The notes beneath the pieces are model-generated. The model saw only the letters and a list, made by a program, of their open reading frames with translations. It did no database searches and was not told where the DNA came from. The translations under genes were made by a program, and so were the position numbers. Positions 5,734-62,791 of a stretch of DNA of 64,000 bases are shown in pieces (positions within the stretch are counted from its first letter, which is position 1; each line of letters starts with the position of its first letter). The stretch spans positions 532-64,531 of the forward strand of contig JBPOIT010000008.1 of NCBI GenBank assembly GCA_052034235.1, in the 5' to 3' direction. The stretch is from Candidatus Levyibacteriota bacterium. Lineage in GTDB: Bacteria > Patescibacteriota > Microgenomatia > Levybacterales > UBA12049.

Positions 5734-6672
5734 TTAACGAAATAACTCGTAACCGACAAAACCTATATATGCACAAAGCATAAAAATACCATTGGTTCTG
5801 GAAATATAATTTTTGGTTAAAAATAAAGCATAAAAAACAAATATCGCTGATGCAATAAGGAGATATGTTACAAGGAAATTATTAACAGTGAGTACTTCGC
5901 CGTTACTAAGAATAGTAAATAAACCAAACAGAAATGTATTTGCCGCCGCAGATCCCATATAATCTCCCATGGCTATATCTTTTTTACCTGTAACAACTGC
6001 TCGTGCAGCAAGTGAAAGTTCTGGCAAATTCGTTCCAACTGAGATTGCAATTAAGCTGATATAAAAGGCTGAAACATGAAAAAATTCCGCAAAGTAAAGC
6101 GTTTTGTCGACAATAAGATTACTTGAAACAAAAACGAGTCCAACACCAACAAGAATTTTAATGAGATCATTAAAAGAAAAAGCCCGTGAATTGAGCAGAT
6201 CTAAATTTGATTTATCAAAAAATCCATGTTTGCGCTCGACAAGGATTAACAAAACAAAATACAATATCAACATCACAACCCCTTCTGCTGTCGTGACTTG
6301 CTTATCCAAGATTAGAAGTGAAGGAGTAATTATAACCCCAAAAGTTGCAAGAAGCGTTCCGTGATCCATCTCATGTTTTAGGCTGATTCCATTACCAAAA
6401 ATAGCAAGTAGGGGAATAACAAAAAGCATAATGACGGGGATACCGCCCAAAAGATTTCCAACAAAAATCTCAGGATCATGCTGCGCAATTGACTGCACAC
6501 CAACAGCAAATTCAGGAGTTGAGGTTAATAACCCGAGGAGCACAAATGACACAGCAAATGAGGAGAGTTTGAAACGCTTTGAAAATCTACTGACAGAACT
6601 GATAATTAGTCCGGCACCAAACCAAATCACAACAAAAGAGAGGATAAAAATACATATGTTTACAGCAAGCAT
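5734..6672 (-). CDS. Ca2+/Na+ antiporter (CaCA / YrbG family)
   Basis: Two alpha-repeat regions including GTNLPELSLAARAV, and about 10 TM helices. Confidence 0.7.
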   Translation of the reverse strand: MLAVNICIFILSFVVIWFGAGLIISSVSRFSKRFKLSSFAVSFVLLGLLTSTPEFAVGVQSIAQHDPEIFVGNLLGGIPVIMLFVIPLLAIFGNGISLKHEMDHGTLLATFGVIITPSLLILDKQVTTAEGVVMLILYFVLLILVERKHGFFDKSNLDLLNSRAFSFNDLIKILVGVGLVFVSSNLIVDKTLYFAEFFHVSAFYISLIAISVGTNLPELSLAARAVVTGKKDIAMGDYMGSAAANTFLFGLFTILSNGEVLTVNNFLVTYLLIASAIFVFYALFLTKNYISRTNGIFMLCAYIGFVGYELFR

Positions 6673-8662: not shown

Positions 8663-9389
8663 CGTGAAGTTGTGAAGCTTGTTTCAATAATTGGATTTCT
8701 TTTCTTGTGAGTTCACGGAATTTACCTACACCAATACCTTCTTTGCCAATTGGTCCGAATTTCACTCGATCAAGTTCCAACAGTTTGACCCCCACAGTTT
8801 CACACATTCTTCTAATCTGTCTATTTTTCCCTTCATGCAGCGTTATTTCAAGAAGTGTCACTCCTAATTTTTCTTTTAATATCGTTACTTTTGCAGGGGA
8901 GGTAATACCATCATCAAGCAACACACCATTACGAAGCGCATTCAGTTGTGATTTTTCAATTCGTCCTGCAATGACTAATCGGTAAACTTTATAGACATGA
9001 TACCTCGGGTGCGCAAGTAAATTCGTCAGTGTACCGTCGTTTGTTAAAATAATAAGTCCAGTCGTCTCTTTATCCAGTCGTCCAACAGGATAGATACGTT
9101 CTTTTGTCGGAATAAGTGCTGTGACATTCTTACGACCAAACTCGTCAGCTGTTGTTGAAACAACACCTTTCGGTTTATTCAAAAGAAAATACAACGGTTT
9201 GGGAGCACGAATCGGTTTGCCATTAAGTCGTATGTCATCGGCATGGGGGATAATCCGTGTTCCTGATTCTTTCACACGTATTCCATTTACGGTAACATTT
9301 TGATGTTTCAACACATTTGCCACTTCGCGCCTTGAACAAATGCCCAAATTAGCGAGATATTTATTTAATCTAATTGTATTTTCTTCCAT
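8646..9389 (-). CDS. rRNA pseudouridine synthase, RsuA/RluB family
   Basis: N-terminal S4 domain (RLNKYLANLGICSRREV) plus the catalytic VGRLD motif. Confidence 0.8.
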   Translation of the reverse strand: MEENTIRLNKYLANLGICSRREVANVLKHQNVTVNGIRVKESGTRIIPHADDIRLNGKPIRAPKPLYFLLNKPKGVVSTTADEFGRKNVTALIPTKERIYPVGRLDKETTGLIILTNDGTLTNLLAHPRYHVYKVYRLVIAGRIEKSQLNALRNGVLLDDGITSPAKVTILKEKLGVTLLEITLHEGKNRQIRRMCETVGVKLLELDRVKFGPIGKEGIGVGKFRELTRKEIQLLKQASQLHVKSNQ

Positions 9390-57138: not shown

Positions 57139-57214
57139 TGGTGCTGAGAGAGTGAGTCGAACACTCATGGCCTGTTCTTCAGACAGGTGCCTTGACCACC
57201 TTGGCTATCTCAGC
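57139..57214 (-). tRNA. tRNA-Phe (anticodon GAA), CCA encoded
   Basis: Hand-folded: acceptor GCTGAGA/TCTCAGC, anticodon stem CCTGT/ACAGG, loop CTGAAGA, T-arm GAGTG-TTCGACT-CACTC, discriminator A followed by encoded CCA. Confidence 0.8.
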
Positions 57215-57890
57215 ATGTATATCTATTTTATCAAACATGGCCTCGTTTGTATATATTGTGAACGATGAATTTCTTAAGTGGAACTCCATCCAGGCTCATT
57301 TTAAACGAATTTACGATACATTTCAACTATATATCTATACTATGTATTTAAAATATAGTATACCTGAATTCACTAGAAGCCCTAGGATATATGTACTTTA
57401 GATAAATAATGATATGTAAACAATAACAAAGGCAATAGGCCAAACAACTGCACTAATAACAAGGAATATTTTTATACTTCCTAGGACGACTTTCAATATT
57501 GGTATGTCAATAAGCTGCATAGTAAGCTTATTGATATTACCATATAGATTTATATATGCATTCATACATTAATTATTACTAAATTTTAGACTAGATAAGA
57601 TCCTAATATGGATCATTACCTTCGTAGAGACATGATACTTGCTACAGAAAGAGGTTTTCAATATCCTAGAAGGTCTATGCAAGCCATAATATTCAAGAGT
57701 TAGTTTCTTATATATTTTTTCTTCTTGTTAGACAATTAGATAATTTTTATATTGTGCTTTTCCTGGCTGAGGTATAAAATATTATCCGTGAATTATAGGA
57801 AAACGCACTCTTCAGTTTTATATCTATCTACGTATGATCAAATGTTAATAAATATTTAATCTCCAGCTCGTATGATACGCATGAAGTATT

Positions 57891-58313
57891 ATGAAAAGCT
57901 TGGTTTTATTCCTCATGGCTACGCTCTTCTTTTCGATTGCCCCTCATGTAGATGCCAGAAGTGGATGTTGCTCTCAGCATGGGGGAGTACGGGCAGATGG
58001 TTGTGCCTGCAATGACGGCTCTTCACTAAGTGCCAAGTGTGCGCCTTACTATTCATGTACTGCTGCTGAACCTGTGCAGAAAAAAAACATTATAAAACCT
58101 ATATATCCCACAGCTACAAAAACACCAATCAAACTCCAGGTTAAACCGACAATGAAGAAAACAAAATTAACTCCAACACCTACTGTTTTTCTAGAAACGC
58201 CTACTATAAAACCTACTTCGAAAGCACAAAAGCCGATTACACTACAAAAAGATACCCAACAGAAGCAAAGTGGATTTTTAAACTTTTTCCTCTCACTTTT
58301 TGGAATGAACTAA
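57891..58313 (+). CDS. secreted Cys-rich / Thr-Pro-Lys-rich hypothetical protein
   Basis: Signal peptide, Cys-rich module (RSGCCSQHGG...CACNDG...KCAPYYSC), then a T/P/K low-complexity region. Confidence 0.45.
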   Translation: MKSLVLFLMATLFFSIAPHVDARSGCCSQHGGVRADGCACNDGSSLSAKCAPYYSCTAAEPVQKKNIIKPIYPTATKTPIKLQVKPTMKKTKLTPTPTVFLETPTIKPTSKAQKPITLQKDTQQKQSGFLNFFLSLFGMN

Positions 58314-58778
58314 ATGAAACAACTTGTGTATACCCTTGTATGGGGAGCCATTTTATTCGGTGGTTATATATTTTTTACCAGTGATAAAACTAGTAGTAAT
58401 GTTTCATTCTCCTCTCGATATTTCGATAGTACAGAATACTCATCTGAAGAAGAATCGAACACAATAAGTTATGAGGATGCAATCTCAGATAACTGGGATG
58501 AAATTCGAGATTATATTGATGCAACTGAAACAATAGAAGCTTGCTCTGATTCAAATGGTAACTGTTATGATCTTGAAGCAGATATTTCTGAAGGATGTAT
58601 TGATACTATCTATTTTGACAATGGGGGATATTTAAATTTTTATAGTGCATGTTTTAACGAGGATGGTTATACATATGATAGTGATGAAAATGGCGACGAT
58701 TGGGAATTTAACCTTGATATGGGTTCTTCGCTTGTTACAGAAGCAATAGATGAATGGGCATCTGAAAGCGATCTCTGA
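58314..58778 (+). CDS. membrane-anchored acidic hypothetical protein
   Basis: N-terminal TM helix and a D/E-rich, Cys-containing extracytoplasmic region. Start codon overlaps the upstream stop (TAAATG). Confidence 0.45.
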   Translation: MKQLVYTLVWGAILFGGYIFFTSDKTSSNVSFSSRYFDSTEYSSEEESNTISYEDAISDNWDEIRDYIDATETIEACSDSNGNCYDLEADISEGCIDTIYFDNGGYLNFYSACFNEDGYTYDSDENGDDWEFNLDMGSSLVTEAIDEWASESDL

Positions 58779-58842
58779 ATAGAATAAATATATTATTGCC
58801 CATCAAACAATCCTTATACAGCTTGCAATAAAAAGACCCATA

Positions 58843-59175
58843 GTGCATAATTGCCACTATGAAAAAACTCAATTGGACTATTATAATTGTCGCTCTTCTT
58901 TTGAGCCTTGCATTACTTGGTTATGTCACCCTCAACTATATTTCAAACAAAATGAGCTAAGAGTTCAAAGAGACAATATTAAACTATTAGCCCTAAAGGA
59001 AACTGAGGTTAAAGAGTGTCTTCAAAAGGTAGAGAAGGATTATCTACGTAAGTATGATTTAGTGCCCACTAAGGACTATCCTGATGCTAGGAGATGGCAT
59101 AATGATGCAGTAGGTAAGGTTGTTGAGGAAAAATATAATAACGATCGGGATTTTTGTTTGAAGCTAAACAAATAG
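58843..59175 (+). CDS. hypothetical protein (possible frameshifted secreted protein)
   Basis: 110-aa ORF. A 33-aa signal-peptide ORF (MKKLNWTIIIVALLLSLALLG...) in another frame overlaps its 5' part. Confidence 0.3.
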   Translation: MHNCHYEKTQLDYYNCRSSFEPCITWLCHPQLYFKQNELRVQRDNIKLLALKETEVKECLQKVEKDYLRKYDLVPTKDYPDARRWHNDAVGKVVEEKYNNDRDFCLKLNK

Positions 59176-59513
59176 ATCTTGTTCTTAATTCTCTTTATCT
59201 TTTTGAATTCTACTATCCTGCAACACAACCAAATTTTCCTTACTCTAGCCGAATGATTTAATATTGCTTCTAGTTTATGATGAACTTGAAGATTTTTAAA
59301 CTTTAAAGGAGTAATTGTAAATAGCATCTGAATGCAATGCGGTTCTGCAAAGATATCGAGGAGTTAAGTAAATGTAATTTTAAAAGAGTAGTACATATCC
59401 TATGTATTAAGATTATACACCCACCTGATTAATAGGATAAAATTTAATATATTTTTAATCTATCTAAGCGATAATATGCGACGAGATATATAGTTAACTC
59501 TATTCAATCAAAA

Positions 59514-59810
59514 GTGAATTATCTTGCCATTATTAGTACGCTTGCCTTATTATTTGGGATCCCTAATGGCTGGGGATATGACTATTATGTTTTATTAAGA
59601 ATTCTTATCTTTACTTCTGCATCAGTTCTTGCTTTTAATCTGTATAAAAAAAATACATTTATAATAACTATTTTTCTTGTAATAGCAATTCTTTTCAACC
59701 CGTTCTTTCCGATCCATTTACATAAAAGTGCATGGATTATTATCGATTTTATATCTGCTATAGTATTTCTCTCTTCAGTTTCATTAACTAAAAATAAACA
59801 TGGAAAATAA
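59514..59810 (+). CDS. small membrane protein
   Basis: 98 aa with three predicted TM helices. AT-rich. Confidence 0.4.
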   Translation: MNYLAIISTLALLFGIPNGWGYDYYVLLRILIFTSASVLAFNLYKKNTFIITIFLVIAILFNPFFPIHLHKSAWIIIDFISAIVFLSSVSLTKNKHGK

Positions 59811-60243
59811 TTCTACAACAATTAATAGAAATGAAAGCGATTTGGCCATAGGTACATTTGTAGAAAAATGGCCAGAATGGATTAGGTGGATACTCTTCAT
59901 CCCTGCTTCTTTTATTGTTCCTATTCTATTTTTTGCCATTCAAAAATTTACTGCAGAATTATACATGGGCACTGATGGAGGGATAATAATGGATTTTTTG
60001 GGTAACATGATTATGGGTGGGGGCATTGTTGCAATCGGCGCCATGGTTGCTCCAAGAAACCAATTTTTTATTGGAATAATTATGCTTCTTCTTGTTACCA
60101 TATTGGGAATTCTAAGTTTATTTGGAGAGCTCTCAACCAATGAGATACATCCAGTTATGGCATTATTACATGTTATTTCGTTTGTAGGTTCTGGTGTTTA
60201 TGCGCTTAATTTTATACACAAGACTGAAAAGGGAGAGGAATGA
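59800..60243 (+). CDS. membrane protein
   Basis: 147 aa with four predicted TM helices. Overlaps the previous ORF by 11 nt. Confidence 0.45.
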   Translation: MENNSTTINRNESDLAIGTFVEKWPEWIRWILFIPASFIVPILFFAIQKFTAELYMGTDGGIIMDFLGNMIMGGGIVAIGAMVAPRNQFFIGIIMLLLVTILGILSLFGELSTNEIHPVMALLHVISFVGSGVYALNFIHKTEKGEE

Positions 60244-60731
60244 TATTAAAAAAAATTATTAAAGTTATATTTATTATTTTATGTTTGATTACTTGGGTAG
60301 GAGTATTCGCATTAGATGATTACACATGGCAGGATTCGTATATTAATAATAATGATTATTTTTTGTATAAAAAGTACAGTAACGTTCTGGATTTAACTTG
60401 CATTTACTGTTGGTTTAAACAACCAGTAAATAGCATAGGCCTTGTAGATAAAAATGAAACTAAGTATTTAGGTAATAATATATATTTCATTAAACTTATA
60501 TGGGTCAACAAAGAATTTGGTTCTAGTAAGAAAACAGAAGTCTTTAGTCATTTTACCGATTGCTATAACAAGAAAAATGGATGGTTAAAGAATGGTAATA
60601 ACATTCCAGACATCAATACAGATATGAGTACTGTAAAATGGTCAAGTTTTAGCGATAATAAAGAAGTCGACGACTCACAAGCACTTTATGAAGAACAATG
60701 TAAATTTCTCCAAGAAAGATTTAAAAAATAG
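60240..60731 (+). CDS. hypothetical secreted/membrane-anchored protein
   Basis: N-terminal TM/signal segment. Asn/Tyr/Lys-rich. No family recognised. Confidence 0.45.
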   Translation: MILKKIIKVIFIILCLITWVGVFALDDYTWQDSYINNNDYFLYKKYSNVLDLTCIYCWFKQPVNSIGLVDKNETKYLGNNIYFIKLIWVNKEFGSSKKTEVFSHFTDCYNKKNGWLKNGNNIPDINTDMSTVKWSSFSDNKEVDDSQALYEEQCKFLQERFKK

Positions 60732-60757: not shown

Positions 60758-60898
60758 ATGAAACTTCCCAAAGGACTAAGTGTGGACAATAGATCCGTCG
60801 TTTGGAACCCAATCCTCGAATCTATCTTCATAGTATACCAGAAATTAGTAGATTATGGATTCATGTATTTTGAAGAAGGATACGGATGTAGAAAATAG
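60758..60898 (+). CDS. small conserved ORF (46 aa), leader module copy 1
   Basis: MKLPKGLSVDNRSVVWNPILESIFIVYQKLVDYGFMYFEEGYGCRK. Paralogous at protein level to the 39-aa ORF at 61706..61825; substitutions are mostly conservative, which argues for coding selection. Confidence 0.5.
   Translation: MKLPKGLSVDNRSVVWNPILESIFIVYQKLVDYGFMYFEEGYGCRK
60776..60886 (+). repeat. direct repeat copy 1 (about 110 bp, roughly 85% identical to copy 2)
   Basis: GTGGACAATAGATCCGTCGTTTGGAACCC...TACCAGAAATTAGTAGATTATGGATTCATGTATTTTGAAGAAGGA aligns with 61709..61810. Confidence 0.7.
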
Positions 60899-60959
60899 TA
60901 GTTAAATATATAAATCTTCAAGAGTTGAAAATACTATAAGTCTGTGATATGCTTCGGTT

Positions 60960-61697
60960 ATGGCTGAAAAATATTTCCCAGGTTTTGAATTTAGAAGGAA
61001 AGAACGAGTCAATCCAATAGAAATAGTTACTTTTGTTGCTGAAAGTGGAGCTGTGCATTCAAATCCAAGAGAAACAATTCGTTTAAGTGATTTATGTGAT
61101 CTGGAAGATATTGCTGAAGAATCAACTCCCAAAGTATGGAATCAAAACAAGCTTAATCAAGAATTCACAAGTCATTTAAATAGTCTGGGTAGACAAATTA
61201 AGCATCCAGGATTAACGATGAGGCAAAGAACTATGCAATTTGTTACTCGTGAAGCAATGAGACCGAAGAATGATATCGAGAGACAATTGTTAGTAGAAAG
61301 ATATGGAGACTATGTTGCTGATGGTGCAGCTGGGGATTGTACTCGTAATCCTAATGGAACTTTTACCTTGCGAATTGGCTTCTTAGGACAAGAAGATACT
61401 GCATCAAAAGAAGAAGTACTCGATGTAATGGCACATGAATATGGACATACACTCGGAAGTGACATTTCTGATCCTACTTTCGAGGAATTAAAGGCGTACA
61501 CGTTTGCAAGATTACTTATGAGACAGACTCAAGATGTAGAATATGGCGGTACTTTATTAGATAATTCTACAGTTCATAACACAGCGCAGTTATGGCTAGA
61601 ACAACTCGTAGCGAATGGTATTAGTGAAGAAAAAGTACTTGCCCATTTAACGGGTAATAAGTTTGGCACTTCCTATCCTGATGATTATCGTAAATAA
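60960..61697 (+). CDS. HExxH metallopeptidase-like protein (ImmA/IrrE-like?)
   Basis: 245 aa with MAHEYGHTLG (HExxH) and a downstream Glu-rich helix. No further family resolution. Confidence 0.5.
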   Translation: MAEKYFPGFEFRRKERVNPIEIVTFVAESGAVHSNPRETIRLSDLCDLEDIAEESTPKVWNQNKLNQEFTSHLNSLGRQIKHPGLTMRQRTMQFVTREAMRPKNDIERQLLVERYGDYVADGAAGDCTRNPNGTFTLRIGFLGQEDTASKEEVLDVMAHEYGHTLGSDISDPTFEELKAYTFARLLMRQTQDVEYGGTLLDNSTVHNTAQLWLEQLVANGISEEKVLAHLTGNKFGTSYPDDYRK

Positions 61698-61705
61698 AAT
61701 CTACT

Positions 61706-61825
61706 ATGGTGGACAATAAGTCCGTCGTTTGGAACCCCTTGTTTGATTCTATCCTCAGATTATACCAGAAATTAGTAGATTTGGGATTCACTATTTTCGA
61801 AGAGAAGGAGGATTCCCATGAATAA
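61706..61825 (+). CDS. small conserved ORF (39 aa), leader module copy 2, translationally coupled to the PLD-like gene
   Basis: MVDNKSVVWNPLFDSILRLYQKLVDLGFTIFEEKEDSHE. Its stop overlaps the downstream ATG (cccATGAATAA). AAGGAGG SD for the downstream gene lies inside it. Confidence 0.5.
   Translation: MVDNKSVVWNPLFDSILRLYQKLVDLGFTIFEEKEDSHE
61709..61810 (+). repeat. direct repeat copy 2
   Basis: Aligns to 60782..60886 (see copy 1). Confidence 0.7.
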
Positions 61826-62258
61826 TTCACGGCTCTATGACGAAAAGACGTTCTATGATGCGTTTGTGACTGATCTAAACGCCTGTAGACAAGAGATAGT
61901 CATCGAAAGCCCTTTTATTACTTCAAGCAGGATGAGAAGCCTTAAATCCTATTTTGAAAGCCTCGTTGAAAGAAACGTAAAAGTATACGTTATTACGCGT
62001 GATCCGAAGGAGCATAGTAATGGCTATGATATTGAGGCTGAAGAGGAAATACAGTATTTTGAAGCTATCGGCGTACAAGTTTTGCTTTGCTCAGGCAATC
62101 ATCACAGGAAACTCGCTATTTTGGACCGAAAGATATTGTGGGAAGGATCACTGAATATTTTATCCCAGGCACACAGCCGGGAGATTATGAGGAGGATTGA
62201 CAGTAGGAAGATAACAGAAGAAACGATGCAGTTTCTCAAGTTGAGCAAGTTTCTCTGA
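61818..62258 (+). CDS. PLD-family (Nuc-like) HxK nuclease domain protein
   Basis: Single HxKx4D motif (HHRKLAILD) followed by GSLN. 146 aa, the size of stand-alone Nuc-type endonucleases. Confidence 0.65.
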   Translation: MNNSRLYDEKTFYDAFVTDLNACRQEIVIESPFITSSRMRSLKSYFESLVERNVKVYVITRDPKEHSNGYDIEAEEEIQYFEAIGVQVLLCSGNHHRKLAILDRKILWEGSLNILSQAHSREIMRRIDSRKITEETMQFLKLSKFL

Positions 62259-62276
62259 TTCTGGTATACTGCGCAT

Positions 62277-62462
62277 ATGAGCAACACAAAATACACAGAA
62301 GATGAATTTCAATGGGCGATAGAGGAGCTGAAGAAAAAGCATCCTGAACGAGCTACTAGAGAGCAGGCAATCAGTTTACTTGATTCTTTAGGTGAATTGC
62401 CCAAATATATGATTGAAAAGATCGCGAAGGACAAAAAATCCGGCAAACTCAGCAAAAATTAA
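62277..62462 (+). CDS. small hypothetical protein (61 aa)
   Basis: Charged helical ORF. Converges on and overlaps the XRE gene by 4 nt. Confidence 0.35.
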   Translation: MSNTKYTEDEFQWAIEELKKKHPERATREQAISLLDSLGELPKYMIEKIAKDKKSGKLSKN

Positions 62463-62659
62463 TCAACTGAGTACGAGACTTTTATTTTGAGGATTTTAAG
62501 AATTGTATCGCGAGTATCCTGAGAAGCATTTTCCTCCCCACGCTCAAACCTCGCATACCAATTGGCATTCACACCAGCTTTTTCAGCCACCTGCTGTTGC
62601 GTCAGCTTCAGTTTATGCCTAGCTTCTTTTAATAATCTCCCTAACTGCTTATCTCCCAT
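62459..62659 (-). CDS. XRE-family HTH transcriptional regulator
   Basis: LTQQQVAEKAGVNANWYARFERGE is the classic XRE HTH. 66 aa. Divergent from the 62792 operon. Confidence 0.75.
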   Translation of the reverse strand: MGDKQLGRLLKEARHKLKLTQQQVAEKAGVNANWYARFERGEENASQDTRDTILKILKIKVSYSVD

Positions 62660-62791
62660 ACGTTATACGGATAGTATAGCATTTTTATATACACTCAAAT
62701 ACATCGATGATAATATGTCTTATTCAAAAAGTCATTTATTTGAAAAAGACTATCGCCGTTGTTATAAATATCTGGTATATTTAATTAACCT

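What the first reader, a model, noticed from the sequence alone, without database searches (positions are those of the whole stretch)
60758..62258. Duplicated leader-ORF modules: a conserved 39-46-aa ORF precedes two different hydrolase genes (HExxH peptidase-like and PLD/Nuc nuclease)
Two roughly 110-bp segments (60776-60886 and 61709-61810) are about 85% identical at the nucleotide level. Each encodes a small protein (46 aa and 39 aa) sharing the core VDN[RK]SVVWNP[IL].[ED]SI..[VL]YQKLVD.GF..FEE. Most differences are synonymous or conservative, which argues that the small ORFs are translated. Copy 1 sits 60 bp upstream of a 245-aa HExxH (MAHEYGH) protein. Copy 2 is translationally coupled (overlapping TAA/ATG, SD inside the ORF) to a 146-aa single-HKD PLD-family nuclease. 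The architecture is a constant small adaptor or leader gene followed by a swappable effector. It resembles cassette shuffling seen in polymorphic toxin or toxin-antitoxin loci and in some phage-defence islands. I do not recognise this small-protein family.
Basis: seen in the sequence. Interest (0 to 1): 0.7.

Follow-up and report, generated by a model that had tools for sequence, protein, structure and literature searches.

The report
tRNA-site island ends carrying micro-ORF
The repeated small gene marks the outer end of several mobile DNA islets stacked beside a tRNA gene; its first codons look like a copied tRNA end, and in intact islets it is the coupled partner of a PLD nuclease, so it is not a universal leader for swappable enzymes.

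Summary
The repeat is real: 95 nt, 81% identical, at 60782-60876 and 61709-61803. A third, decayed copy lies at 57258, 44 nt from tRNA-Phe. The small ORF belongs to an unannotated family of 35-50-aa proteins. I found about 50 copies in about 40 loci from CPR and other bacteria.

Each copy has two parts. A 27-nt head (GTG-N18-TGGAAC) is constrained as DNA (pN/pS 1.5, low pS). In related loci it matches the 3' end of a nearby tRNA gene (12/12 nt in L022). A 22-codon body is under protein-level purifying selection (pN/pS 0.29).

The usual downstream gene is the PLD nuclease, seen in 16 of 30 loci found through the small ORF. All 7 loci found through the PLD have a small overlapping upstream ORF. 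A 61-aa gene and a convergent Xre HTH gene often follow.

No HExxH homologue occurs in those 30 loci, and three more distant HExxH homologues (42-57% identical) have no small ORF nearby. Copy 1 is therefore an orphan that lost its PLD.

Copies form same-direction arrays, and in 9 of 9 arrays the rightmost copy is the most intact.

Best reading: tandem tRNA-site islets, each headed by an att-spanning micro-ORF. An antidote or regulator role for the small protein is inferred, not shown.

The parts
57139..57214 (-). tRNA-Phe(GAA). Its 5' side forms the chromosomal flank of the array.
   Evidence: ARAGORN and Rfam tRNA at 62 bits. A tRNA-Phe(-) followed by a small-ORF head 19-22 nt away is seen in L007 and L010; L033 carries the 5'-terminal nucleotides of the same tRNA-Phe flank, 95% identical to the window, with the head 44 nt away.
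57258..57401 (+). W0: third, degenerate copy of the small ORF (GTG-N18-TGGAAC head; VNDEFLKWNSIQAHFKRIYDTF...).
   Evidence: Motif scan finds 3 hits in 64 kb, all on the + strand. W0 is 47% identical to W1 and W2, with 0 of 20,000 shuffles reaching this. The flank and the first 10 nt are 95% identical to L033.
57891..60731 (+). Cargo of the outermost cassette: six small ORFs (140, 154, 110, 98 [DUF6804], 147 and 163 aa). The close relative L033 has PIN, HTH_17 and CN_hydrolase genes here instead.
60782..60808 (+). Head of copy 1 (GTGGACAATAGATCCGTCGTTTGGAAC): the DNA-level-constrained, tRNA-3'-end-like segment. It is the exact left boundary of homology with L033.
60758..60898 (+). Small ORF copy 1 (W1). 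It is 46 aa from the ATG and 38 aa from the homologous GTG at 60782. It is an orphan with no PLD, and it departs from the family consensus at R->I, L->V, L->Y and T->M.
60871..60891 (+). Possible vestige of the PLD ribosome site and start: GAAGAAGGA...CGGATG followed directly by TAG. This is weak evidence.
   Evidence: Compared with the GAGGAGG-N5-8-ATG junctions of PLD-linked loci.
60960..61697 (+). 245-aa HExxH protein with invariant HEYGH...EELKAY. It is zincin-like, belongs to a small family of 13 relatives, and is cargo rather than a partner of the small ORF.
   Evidence: Homologues L035-L037 lack the small ORF.
61709..61735 (+). Head of copy 2 (GTGGACAATAAGTCCGTCGTTTGGAAC).
61706..61825 (+). 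Small ORF copy 2 (W2), 39 aa. It is intact, matches the consensus, and overlaps the PLD start by 8 nt.
61805..61811 (+). Shine-Dalgarno AAGGAGG for the PLD gene, lying inside the acidic tail of the small ORF.
   Evidence: A conserved GAGGAGG-ATG junction is seen in most of the PLD-linked loci.
61818..62258 (+). 146-aa single-HKD PLD-family nuclease with the motif H96-x-K98-x4-D103-x6-G110-S111-x-N113.
   Evidence: Pfam PLDc_2 at 48.4 bits. Invariant motif columns. AF2 model at pLDDT 91, matching NucT, Zucchini and Nuc.
62277..62462 (+). 61-aa conserved helical protein (p61) of unknown family. It is the third gene of the module.
   Evidence: Present in about 11 of 16 PLD-linked loci. No family hit.
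62459..62659 (-). 66-aa Xre-type HTH protein, convergent with p61 and overlapping it by 4 nt. It is the fourth gene of the module.
   Evidence: Pfam HTH_31 at 4.5e-11. Conserved together with p61.
60782..62686 (+). Block conserved as a unit with the close relative L033 (91% nt identity): sORF1, HExxH, sORF2, PLD, p61, HTH.
   Evidence: blastn.

Best explanation
The two repeats, plus a third decayed one, are the tRNA-distal ends of mobile islets integrated one after another beside a tRNA gene.

Each end starts with a 27-nt head, GTG-N18-TGGAAC. Its first 6-12 nt are the reverse complement of a tRNA 3' end. This is the displaced tDNA fragment or att core that marks an island boundary. The GTG of that core serves as the start codon of a micro-ORF. 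The remaining roughly 30 codons of the ORF are island-encoded and selected as protein.

In intact elements the micro-ORF is translationally coupled to a single-HKD PLD nuclease. The SD lies inside the ORF and the stop and start overlap by 8 nt. A 61-aa gene and a convergent Xre HTH gene usually follow.

The three window copies fit this picture:
- W2 is the intact module.
- W1 lost its PLD and now abuts an unrelated zincin gene.
- W0 is older still.

Inferred, not shown:
- The micro-protein binds the PLD as an antidote or regulator, in the manner of a toxin-antitoxin pair.
- Because its start sits on the att junction with no element-borne promoter upstream, expression of the pair depends on what lies across the junction.
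For: 1. Family and coding.
- The exhaustive HMMER search finds only 41-95-aa proteins, never a domain of a larger protein.
- Across 30 copies, pN/pS of the 22-codon body is 0.29 with pS at 0.78. Only the + frame 0 is open in all 30 copies.

2. The head is a DNA element.
- Conservation starts abruptly at an invariant GTG, with nothing conserved upstream.
- Head pN/pS is 1.5 with pS only 0.33.
- The Asn codon is AAC, never AAT, in the 24 aligned copies (the third base is invariant; one copy has GAC), while body codons vary freely.
- The head is kept in L025, L029 and L031, where a 1-nt deletion puts it out of frame with the body.

3. tRNA origin.
- The L022 head, TGGTGCGCGAGA, equals the 3' end of the tRNA-Leu(-) 740 nt downstream (12/12).
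- L016 and L020 match their downstream tRNA-Leu 8/8.
- The L007 head starts GTGGAC, as does the tRNA-Val(-) 1.5 kb downstream, and it also has a T-arm-like GTTTGGAACCCC against GATTCGAACCCC.
- L024 has a tRNA-Val-like gene about 750 nt downstream of its copy, with a similar 3' end.
- A tRNA lies within about 1.5 kb of a copy in at least 14 loci.

4. Arrays and polarity.
- Two or three same-strand copies, mostly 0.7-3.5 kb apart, occur in 10 loci and in the window.
- In 9 of 9 arrays the rightmost copy scores best.

5. Boundaries.
- The window and L033 are 91% identical from exactly 60782 to 62686 and 95% identical across the tRNA-Phe flank plus the first 10 nt of W0. The cassette in between is completely different.

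6. PLD partnership.
- 16 of 30 loci ascertained by the small ORF carry the PLD downstream, most with a conserved GAGGAGG-ATG(T/A)TTAA junction.
- 7 of 7 PLD-ascertained loci have a small overlapping upstream ORF, of three sequence types.
- The PLD decays first: it is frameshifted in L012, and only its first roughly 20 nt remain in L007.

7. Mobile context.
- Replic_Relax lies in the window's rightward extension.
- T4SS genes occur in L043 and a large serine recombinase in L044.

8. Established principle.
- A regenerated tDNA and its displaced fragment mark island ends, and tandem arrays occur (PMC4383910).
- Successive integrations push older elements outward (bioRxiv 10.1101/2020.12.28.424599).
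Against: - The target tRNA and any integrase of the window's own array were not seen. No tRNA lies within 13 kb to the right (L038), and no recombinase lies in the visible part.
- For the CPR-type head, the exact match to tRNA-Val is only 6 nt. It comes from another genome (L007).
- The head is 5 nt longer than a true tRNA 3' segment, which is unexplained.
- The outermost cassette differs between two close relatives while the inner ones are shared. Pure accretion does not predict this. It needs later replacement by recombination.
- Many cassettes are single-gene and about 1 kb, which simple decay does not obviously produce.
- No data bear directly on binding, toxicity or expression.
- Promoter-like matches are at chance level.
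- In L044 the PLD module lies at the tRNA-proximal end of the element, not the distal end.
Confidence: 0.6

Rival explanations
1. An integron-like cassette platform. The 27-nt head, perhaps with the ORF body, is a recombination site. Single-gene cassettes are excised and inserted individually by a recombinase acting in trans, so the array is actively shuffled rather than a graveyard of decayed islands.
For: - Most inter-copy spacings are 0.7-1.6 kb, with one or two genes on either strand.
- The outermost cassette was swapped cleanly between the window and L033, with junctions at the head cores.
- The heads are conserved as DNA.
- An XerD-like recombinase lies 700 nt from the head in L003.
Against: - No recombinase lies next to the window array.
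- Cassette gene orientation is mixed.
- The repeat has no attC-like palindrome and nothing is conserved upstream of GTG.
- The polarity of decay, with the rightmost copy always best, fits accretion.
- The clean swap can also be explained by homologous recombination between the conserved flanks.
Confidence: 0.17
2. One reading: a constant leader or adaptor gene that serves interchangeable downstream hydrolase effectors, as in polymorphic-toxin or toxin-antitoxin cassette shuffling.
For: - The small ORF precedes different genes in different cassettes.
- It is translationally coupled to the PLD.
Against: - Only the PLD is a recurrent coupled partner.
- Downstream genes in orphan cassettes are unrelated to one another and often lie on the opposite strand.
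- HExxH homologues elsewhere lack the small ORF.
- Copy 1 lies 61 nt from the HExxH gene with no coupling.
- There is no in-frame fusion to variable domains, apart from one probable accident in L010.
Confidence: 0.08
3. The small ORF is only a translational-coupling upstream ORF or leader whose peptide has no function of its own. Alternatively, the repeat is a purely non-coding att or RNA element.
For: - The SD and start of the PLD gene lie inside the ORF, and the acidic tail is simply the SD read as Glu-Glu.
- The head is constrained as DNA.
- Gene callers rarely annotate the ORF.
Against: - Body pN/pS is 0.29 at saturated pS, with Leu TTA/CTG and Ser TCT/AGT codon switches.
- The frame is open in 30 of 30 copies, including orphans without a PLD.
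- There is no Rfam family.
- The minus-strand frames are broken.
Confidence: 0.1
4. Ordinary paralogous duplication of a small chromosomal gene, with no link to tRNA integration.
For: Three copies lie within 4.5 kb in one orientation.
Against: - The copies are as diverged from each other as from copies in other genomes.
- Homology boundaries fall exactly at the GTG.
- The heads match adjacent tRNA 3' ends.
- The same family occurs in CPR genomes and in MAGs labelled as other phyla, in mobile contexts.
Confidence: 0.05

Closest known systems
tRNA-gene-targeting genomic islands in tandem arrays (the Islander principle; tycheposon-type accretion)
   Same: - Direct repeat of the tRNA 3' end at the distal island boundary.
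- Arrays in one orientation next to tRNA genes.
- Older, decayed units lie further from the tRNA.
- Variable cargo that includes TA genes and mobility genes.
   Different: - The displaced-fragment core here doubles as the start codon of a conserved micro-ORF.
- The repeated unit extends about 100 nt into protein-coding sequence.
- Many units are about 1 kb and carry no integrase.
- The integrase and target tRNA of the window's own array were not seen.
Type II toxin-antitoxin modules on mobile elements
   Same: - A small upstream gene overlaps a downstream enzyme gene with intact catalytic residues.
- Orphan copies of the upstream gene persist after the enzyme gene is lost.
- The pair sits on integrative elements.
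- The upstream partner comes in different sequence types with the same enzyme.
   Different: - The upstream protein is only 35-50 aa and has no DNA-binding domain.
- A PLD nuclease matched no toxin model in the libraries searched here.
- A separate Xre HTH gene and a 61-aa gene accompany the pair.
- Nothing has been tested.
Single-HKD PLD nucleases Nuc / NucT / Zucchini
   Same: The HxK-x4-D-x6-GSxN motif, a domain of about 150 aa, and the predicted fold (Foldseek E about 1e-10, TM about 0.7).
   Different: Sequence identity is only 16-24%. No dedicated upstream micro-ORF was noted for these proteins in anything examined here.
Integron cassette arrays
   Same: An array of short cassettes, each with a repeated site, next to a fixed anchor.
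   Different: - No IntI and no attI.
- The repeat is coding, tRNA-derived and at the 5' end of each unit, not a palindromic attC at the 3' end.
- Gene orientation is mixed.

Membership tests
tRNA-integrated genomic island (tandem array) | Intact target tRNA gene at one end of the island. | tested here: inconclusive
   Met in the related loci L007 (tRNA-Val), L016, L020, L022 and L027 (tRNA-Leu), and L024.
tRNA-integrated genomic island (tandem array) | Displaced 3' tDNA fragment as a direct repeat, in the correct orientation, at the other end. | tested here: met
   L022 matches 12/12, L016 and L020 8/8, L007 6/6, all anchored at the exact tRNA 3' end and in the same orientation. The window heads share the L007 tRNA-Val-type GTGGAC.
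tRNA-integrated genomic island (tandem array) | Integrase gene within the island. | tested here: not met
   None in window 53.9-64 kb or among the L038 genes tested. Recombinases were seen only in other loci: L003 (XerD-like) and L044 (large serine recombinase).
Type II toxin-antitoxin system | Adjacent co-directional gene pair with coupled translation. | tested here: met
   An 8-nt overlap and an internal SD in the window and in most of the PLD-linked loci. 7 of 7 PLD-ascertained loci have a small overlapping ORF.
Type II toxin-antitoxin system | Match to a known toxin or antitoxin family. | tested here: not met
   The small ORF has no hit in Pfam, NCBIfam, PHROGs or PADLOC. The PLD hits only nuclease domains (MkoC, DrmC).
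Type II toxin-antitoxin system | The toxin is harmful alone and is neutralised by direct binding of the antitoxin. | not testable with these tools
There are no experimental data.
Integron | IntI integrase with attI next to the array, and a palindromic attC at the 3' end of each cassette. | tested here: not met
   No recombinase is adjacent. The repeat is coding, nothing is conserved upstream of it, and it has no Rfam or attC-like match.
Polymorphic toxin / CDI orphan cassettes | Conserved pre-toxin fragment fused in frame to a variable toxin tip, followed by an immunity gene. | tested here: not met
   The small ORF ends with its own stop. Downstream genes lie in other frames or on the other strand and are unrelated to one another.
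PLD superfamily, single-HKD nuclease | HxK-x4-D-x6-GSxN motif, PLDc_2 above the gathering score, and a Nuc-like fold. | tested here: met
   H96, K98, D103, G110, S111 and N113 are invariant. PLDc_2 scores 48.4 bits against a cut-off of 27. Foldseek to NucT 6ehi gives 2.6e-10 and to Nuc 1byr 6.5e-09.
Zincin metallopeptidase (the HExxH protein) | HExxH plus a third zinc ligand, and a zincin fold. | tested here: inconclusive
   H159, E160, H163, E175 and E176 are invariant. All Pfam hits are below their cut-offs. The best fold matches are zincins, but with E > 0.4.

The most novel reading that the evidence does not exclude
The arrays are an active, tRNA-anchored cassette-exchange system found in CPR and other bacteria. 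In this reading the 27-nt tRNA-derived head, fused to a micro-ORF, is the recombination site, and roughly 1-kb single-gene cassettes move individually. The ever-present PLD enzyme works through a covalent phosphohistidine intermediate. It could itself take part in DNA cleavage and joining, or in policing the junction, with the micro-protein as its regulator.
Probability: 0.12. Interest if true: 0.85.

Novelty: new variant of a known kind. Interest (0 to 1): 0.55.

Why it matters
It defines an unannotated micro-protein family that gene callers mostly miss. The window's own 39-aa sequence is absent from a collection of 15 billion proteins. The family appears to be the obligate small partner of a very widespread PLD nuclease, with about 5,000 homologue clusters, many named from CPR (Microgenomates) genomes.

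It also shows a start codon donated by a tRNA-derived attachment core. This gives a simple sequence signature, GTG-N18-TGGAAC followed by ...YQKL..GF, for mapping island ends and hotspots in CPR genomes, where mobile elements are poorly charted.

If the small protein proves to be an antidote, this would be a nuclease/micro-antidote pair that matches no toxin-antitoxin model in the libraries searched here.

Tried and rejected
- **Domain of a larger protein?** The exhaustive search returned only proteins of 95 aa or less.
- **Minus-strand ORF?** In copy 2 it is open for 69 aa, but in most family members it is broken, because TAT-CAA reads as TGA on the minus strand.
- **Known families.** Pfam, NCBIfam, PHROGs, PADLOC, the PDB sequence search and Rfam gave nothing for the small ORF.
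- **Convergent genes next to orphans.** The roughly 232-aa genes beside the orphans whose ORF ends in 'PP' looked like a second conserved partner, but they are unrelated to one another.
- **Hairpins upstream of the Leu-type copies.** They look like ordinary terminators of flanking genes or tRNAs, not a conserved element. I did not pursue them.
- **Promoter and terminator scan.** Matches were no more frequent than in shuffled sequence.
- **Plasmids and phages.** The PLD has no match in either collection, and the viral contig scan for the small ORF was empty.
- **HExxH structure.** The AF2 model gave only non-significant zincin matches.
- **Integrase search.** Neighbouring large ORFs were searched for integrases and none was found.
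Full report
**1. The observation**

The window holds one long direct repeat in the region: 60782-60876 and 61709-61803, 95 nt, 81% identical. No shuffle of 5,000 reaches this identity. Both small ORFs exist, at 60758-60898 (46 aa) and 61706-61825 (39 aa). Copy 1 ends 61 nt before a 245-aa HExxH ORF. Copy 2 overlaps a 146-aa PLD ORF by 8 nt, with AAGGAGG at 61805-61811. Of the 12 codons that differ, 2 are synonymous, about 6 conservative and 4 non-conservative.

The motif GTG-N18-TGGAAC, shared by both copies, occurs a third time at 57258 on the same strand and nowhere else in 64 kb. This copy, W0, is 47% identical to the other two, and none of 20,000 shuffles reaches that. It starts 44 nt from the 5' end of tRNA-Phe (57139-57214, minus strand).

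**2. A real, unannotated micro-protein family**

Pfam, NCBIfam, PHROGs, PADLOC, the PDB sequence search and Rfam all give nothing for the small ORF. The word-indexed search found only the window's own 46-aa ORF. An exhaustive HMMER pass over 1.84 billion representatives found 20 proteins, all 41-95 aa and never part of a larger protein. DNA-level scans added 4 genome loci and 26 metagenome loci.

The core reads W-N-P-[IV]-[YF]-[DE]-S-[IL]-L-x-[ML]-Y-Q-K-L-x-D-L-G-F-x-Y, often followed by G-K-V-x-I-I-E and an acidic tail. Gene callers mostly miss these ORFs. The exact 39-aa sequence is absent from a 15-billion-protein collection, and the named members are called 'hypothetical protein'.

**3. 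Two parts under different constraints**

Column-by-column information content shows no conservation upstream, an invariant GTG, and then clear three-base periodicity from the TGG onwards. Across 30 copies:
- The 22-codon body has pS 0.78, pN 0.23 and pN/pS 0.29. PLD-linked copies (0.27) and orphans (0.30) are alike.
- The 7-codon head has pS 0.33, pN 0.50 and pN/pS 1.5. It is conserved as DNA, not as protein.

Only the + frame 0 is open in all 30 copies. The Asn codon is AAC, never AAT, in the 24 aligned copies (one copy has GAC), while Tyr, Gln, Lys, Leu and Ser codons in the body vary synonymously, including TTA/CTG and TCT/AGT switches. In L025, L029 and L031 a 1-nt deletion just after TGGAAC puts the head out of frame with the body, yet the head is still conserved. 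These copies probably start at the TTG inside cTTGGAAC.

**4. The head resembles a tRNA 3' end**

tRNA genes are strikingly frequent near the copies. In one subfamily the head reads (A/T)TGGTGCGCGAGA. In L022 this is identical, 12 of 12 and in the same orientation, to the 3' end (acceptor strand plus ACCA, reverse complement) of the tRNA-Leu 740 nt downstream. L016 and L020 match their downstream tRNA-Leu 8 of 8.

In the CPR-type subfamily the head starts GTGGAC. In L007 a tRNA-Val 1.5 kb downstream starts, in the same view, GTGGACTCTGAGGGATTCGAACCCCC, against the head GTGGACAATCGAGCCGTGGTTTGGAACCCC. L024 has a tRNA-Val-like gene about 750 nt downstream of its copy. Its 3' end, GTGGGCAC, matches the heads of L017 and L010b 8 of 8. 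In both subfamilies the GTG corresponds to tRNA positions 72-74.

This is the classic signature of integration at a tRNA gene: the regenerated tRNA gene and a displaced 3' fragment mark the two island ends (PMC4383910). The head is 5 nt longer than a real tRNA segment, which I cannot explain.

**5. Arrays with polarity**

An HMM scan of every locus shows two or three same-strand copies, mostly 0.7-3.5 kb apart, in L005, L010, L015, L018, L022, L023, L028 (with L030, an identical region from a second metagenome), L029 and L033, and in the window. The genes between copies are unrelated and lie on either strand. They include YafQ/ParE, PIN, NUDIX, a histidine kinase and a C39-like peptidase.

In all 9 arrays that can be scored, the rightmost copy has the best score and the left copies are truncated, frameshifted or diverged. 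If order were random, the chance of this is about 4e-4 (my calculation). Where the target tRNA is visible, it lies to the right. This matches successive integrations pushing older elements outward, as described for tycheposons (bioRxiv 10.1101/2020.12.28.424599).

**6. Comparison with a close relative**

L033 is 91% identical to the window from exactly 60782 (the GTG of copy 1) to 62686, which is 27 nt beyond the HTH start. It is 95% identical across the 8-nt end of tRNA-Phe, the 44-nt spacer and the first 10 nt of W0. Between these points it carries PIN, HTH_17 and CN_hydrolase genes instead of the window's six small ORFs.

The unit sORF1-HExxH-sORF2-PLD-p61-HTH is therefore old and shared. 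The outer cassette has been replaced, with junctions falling at the head cores. L033 has an in-frame stop 6 nt before the GTG of its copy 1, so the homologous start is the GTG.

**7. The partner is the PLD, not 'any effector'**

Of the 30 loci found through the small ORF, 16 have the PLD directly downstream. Most share a conserved junction in which GAGGAGG (read as Glu-Glu in the small ORF) precedes ATG(T/A)TTAA. About 11 also have the 61-aa gene and the convergent Xre HTH gene. No HExxH homologue occurs in those 30 loci.

The HExxH family has only 13 relatives. Three with 42-57% identity lie in other contexts with no small ORF nearby.

Orphan copies show the PLD being lost first:
- L012 keeps a frameshifted first 50 codons of the PLD.
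- L007 keeps ATGTTTAAC and about 10 more bases.
- W1 has GAAGAAGGA...ATG followed directly by TAG.

Starting instead from the PLD (5,070 homologue clusters, many named from Microgenomates CPR genomes), 7 of 7 distinct loci have a small overlapping upstream ORF:
- The same family in the window, L039, L042 and L043.
- A second type (MCTIWDDVRTYLTSQIDPKEKANL...KQKEGKP) in L040 and L041.
- A third, distantly similar type in L044/L045.

**8. Context and the enzyme**

The window's rightward extension (L038) carries a protein kinase, several unknown genes and a Replic_Relax gene. L043 has T4SS genes and a TIR protein next to the module. L044 has a large serine recombinase immediately upstream and a tRNA-Leu 420 nt beyond the HTH gene.

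The PLD has the full H96-x-K98-x4-D103-x6-G110-S111-x-N113 motif. It models with pLDDT 91 as a complete Nuc-like domain, with NucT, Zucchini and Nuc as top matches. The small ORF is therefore not a missing piece of the fold. The HExxH protein models at pLDDT 79 and gives only non-significant zincin matches.

**9. Mechanism**

*Shown:*
- The repeat structure.
- The split of each copy into a DNA-constrained head and a protein-constrained body.
- The tRNA-end matches in related loci.
- The arrays and their polarity.
- The PLD coupling.

*Inferred, with good support:* the copies are the distal ends of tandemly integrated elements, and the att core supplies the start codon.

*Inferred, with moderate support:* the micro-protein is a physical partner of the PLD, most simply an antidote or regulator. 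Five observations point this way:
- A small coupled upstream ORF is universal in the PLD-ascertained loci, though its sequence type varies.
- The ORF body is under strong purifying selection.
- Intact orphans persist.
- No PLD lacking a small ORF was found.
- The peptide is too small to fold alone. It looks like one amphipathic helix flanked by short strands, with pI 4.4-4.9.

*Speculative:* because nothing element-borne lies upstream of the GTG, expression of the pair may depend on what is joined across the junction, whether chromosomal flank, preceding cassette or the other island end after excision.

**10. What remains open**

- The window's own target tRNA and recombinase.
- The 5-nt length difference between the head and a real tRNA 3' segment.
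- Why so many cassettes are single-gene and about 1 kb.
- Whether cassettes move individually, as the integron-like rival proposes.

The cause is different, and the effector is not freely swappable.

Noticed in passing
window 57258-57401: Third, degenerate small-ORF copy (W0), 44 nt from the 5' end of tRNA-Phe. The same head next to a tRNA-Phe(-) is seen in L007 and L010 (19-22 nt away) and next to the tRNA-Phe flank fragment of L033 (44 nt away).
   Followed up: yes
window 57891-60731: Six small ORFs with no family assignment except DUF6804 (59514-59810). Several look secreted or membrane-bound, for example a Cys-rich 140-aa protein with a signal-like N-terminus. The whole block is replaced by PIN, HTH_17 and CN_hydrolase genes in the close relative L033.
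   Followed up: partly
window 62277-62659: A 61-aa protein of unknown family and a 66-aa Xre HTH gene converge and overlap by 4 nt. This pair is conserved with the PLD in about 11 loci, and its role is unknown.
   Followed up: partly
L040 5873-6004; L041 about 5888-6004; L044 about 8870-9014: PLDs 65-66% identical to the window's carry a different small overlapping upstream ORF. Type B is MCTIWDDVRTYLTSQIDPKEKANL..KQKEGKP. Type C is ..EPLFAVLTDFIRFMEAYQASEEKNGTL and overlaps the end of a large serine recombinase gene.
   Followed up: partly
L025 about 950-1082; L029 about 1480-1617; L031 about 2070-2203: A subgroup with a shared 1-nt deletion just after TGGAAC. The head stays conserved but is out of frame with the body, so translation probably starts at the TTG inside the head.
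   Followed up: partly
L010 2253-3095: A small-ORF head and its first 24 codons are fused in frame to a 280-aa ORF with no family hit. This is probably a recombination accident that created a chimeric gene.
   Followed up: no
L018, L021, L027, L028, L032: 5-35 nt upstream of the GTG: Strong hairpins of varying sequence, several oriented as minus-strand terminators. Some have an arm containing GTTCCA/TGGAAC that could pair alternatively with the head.
   Followed up: no
L018, L020, L023, L027 and proteins P0007, P0013-P0015: Many orphan copies of the tRNA-Leu-type subfamily end at the same point with ...(E)PP-stop (CCGCCNTAG/TGA). This suggests a shared breakpoint or a defined element end.
   Followed up: no
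L043 5340-13895: Next to the PLD module lies a CPR-type conjugative gene set (TraG/VirB4-like, TraC-like and T4SS pilin genes, an M23 peptidase) together with a 605-aa TIR-domain protein.
   Followed up: no
window 60925-60953, 61663-61691, 62241-62270: Promoter-like hexamer pairs end 6-15 nt before the start codons of the HExxH, sORF2 and p61 genes, which hints at very short or absent leaders. Overall, promoter-like matches are at chance frequency.
   Followed up: no
L003 3457-5006; L022 2498-2851: NUDIX hydrolase genes recur next to the copies. In L003 the NUDIX start codon abuts the GTG of the small ORF on the opposite strand, with an XerD-like recombinase just beyond it.
   Followed up: no
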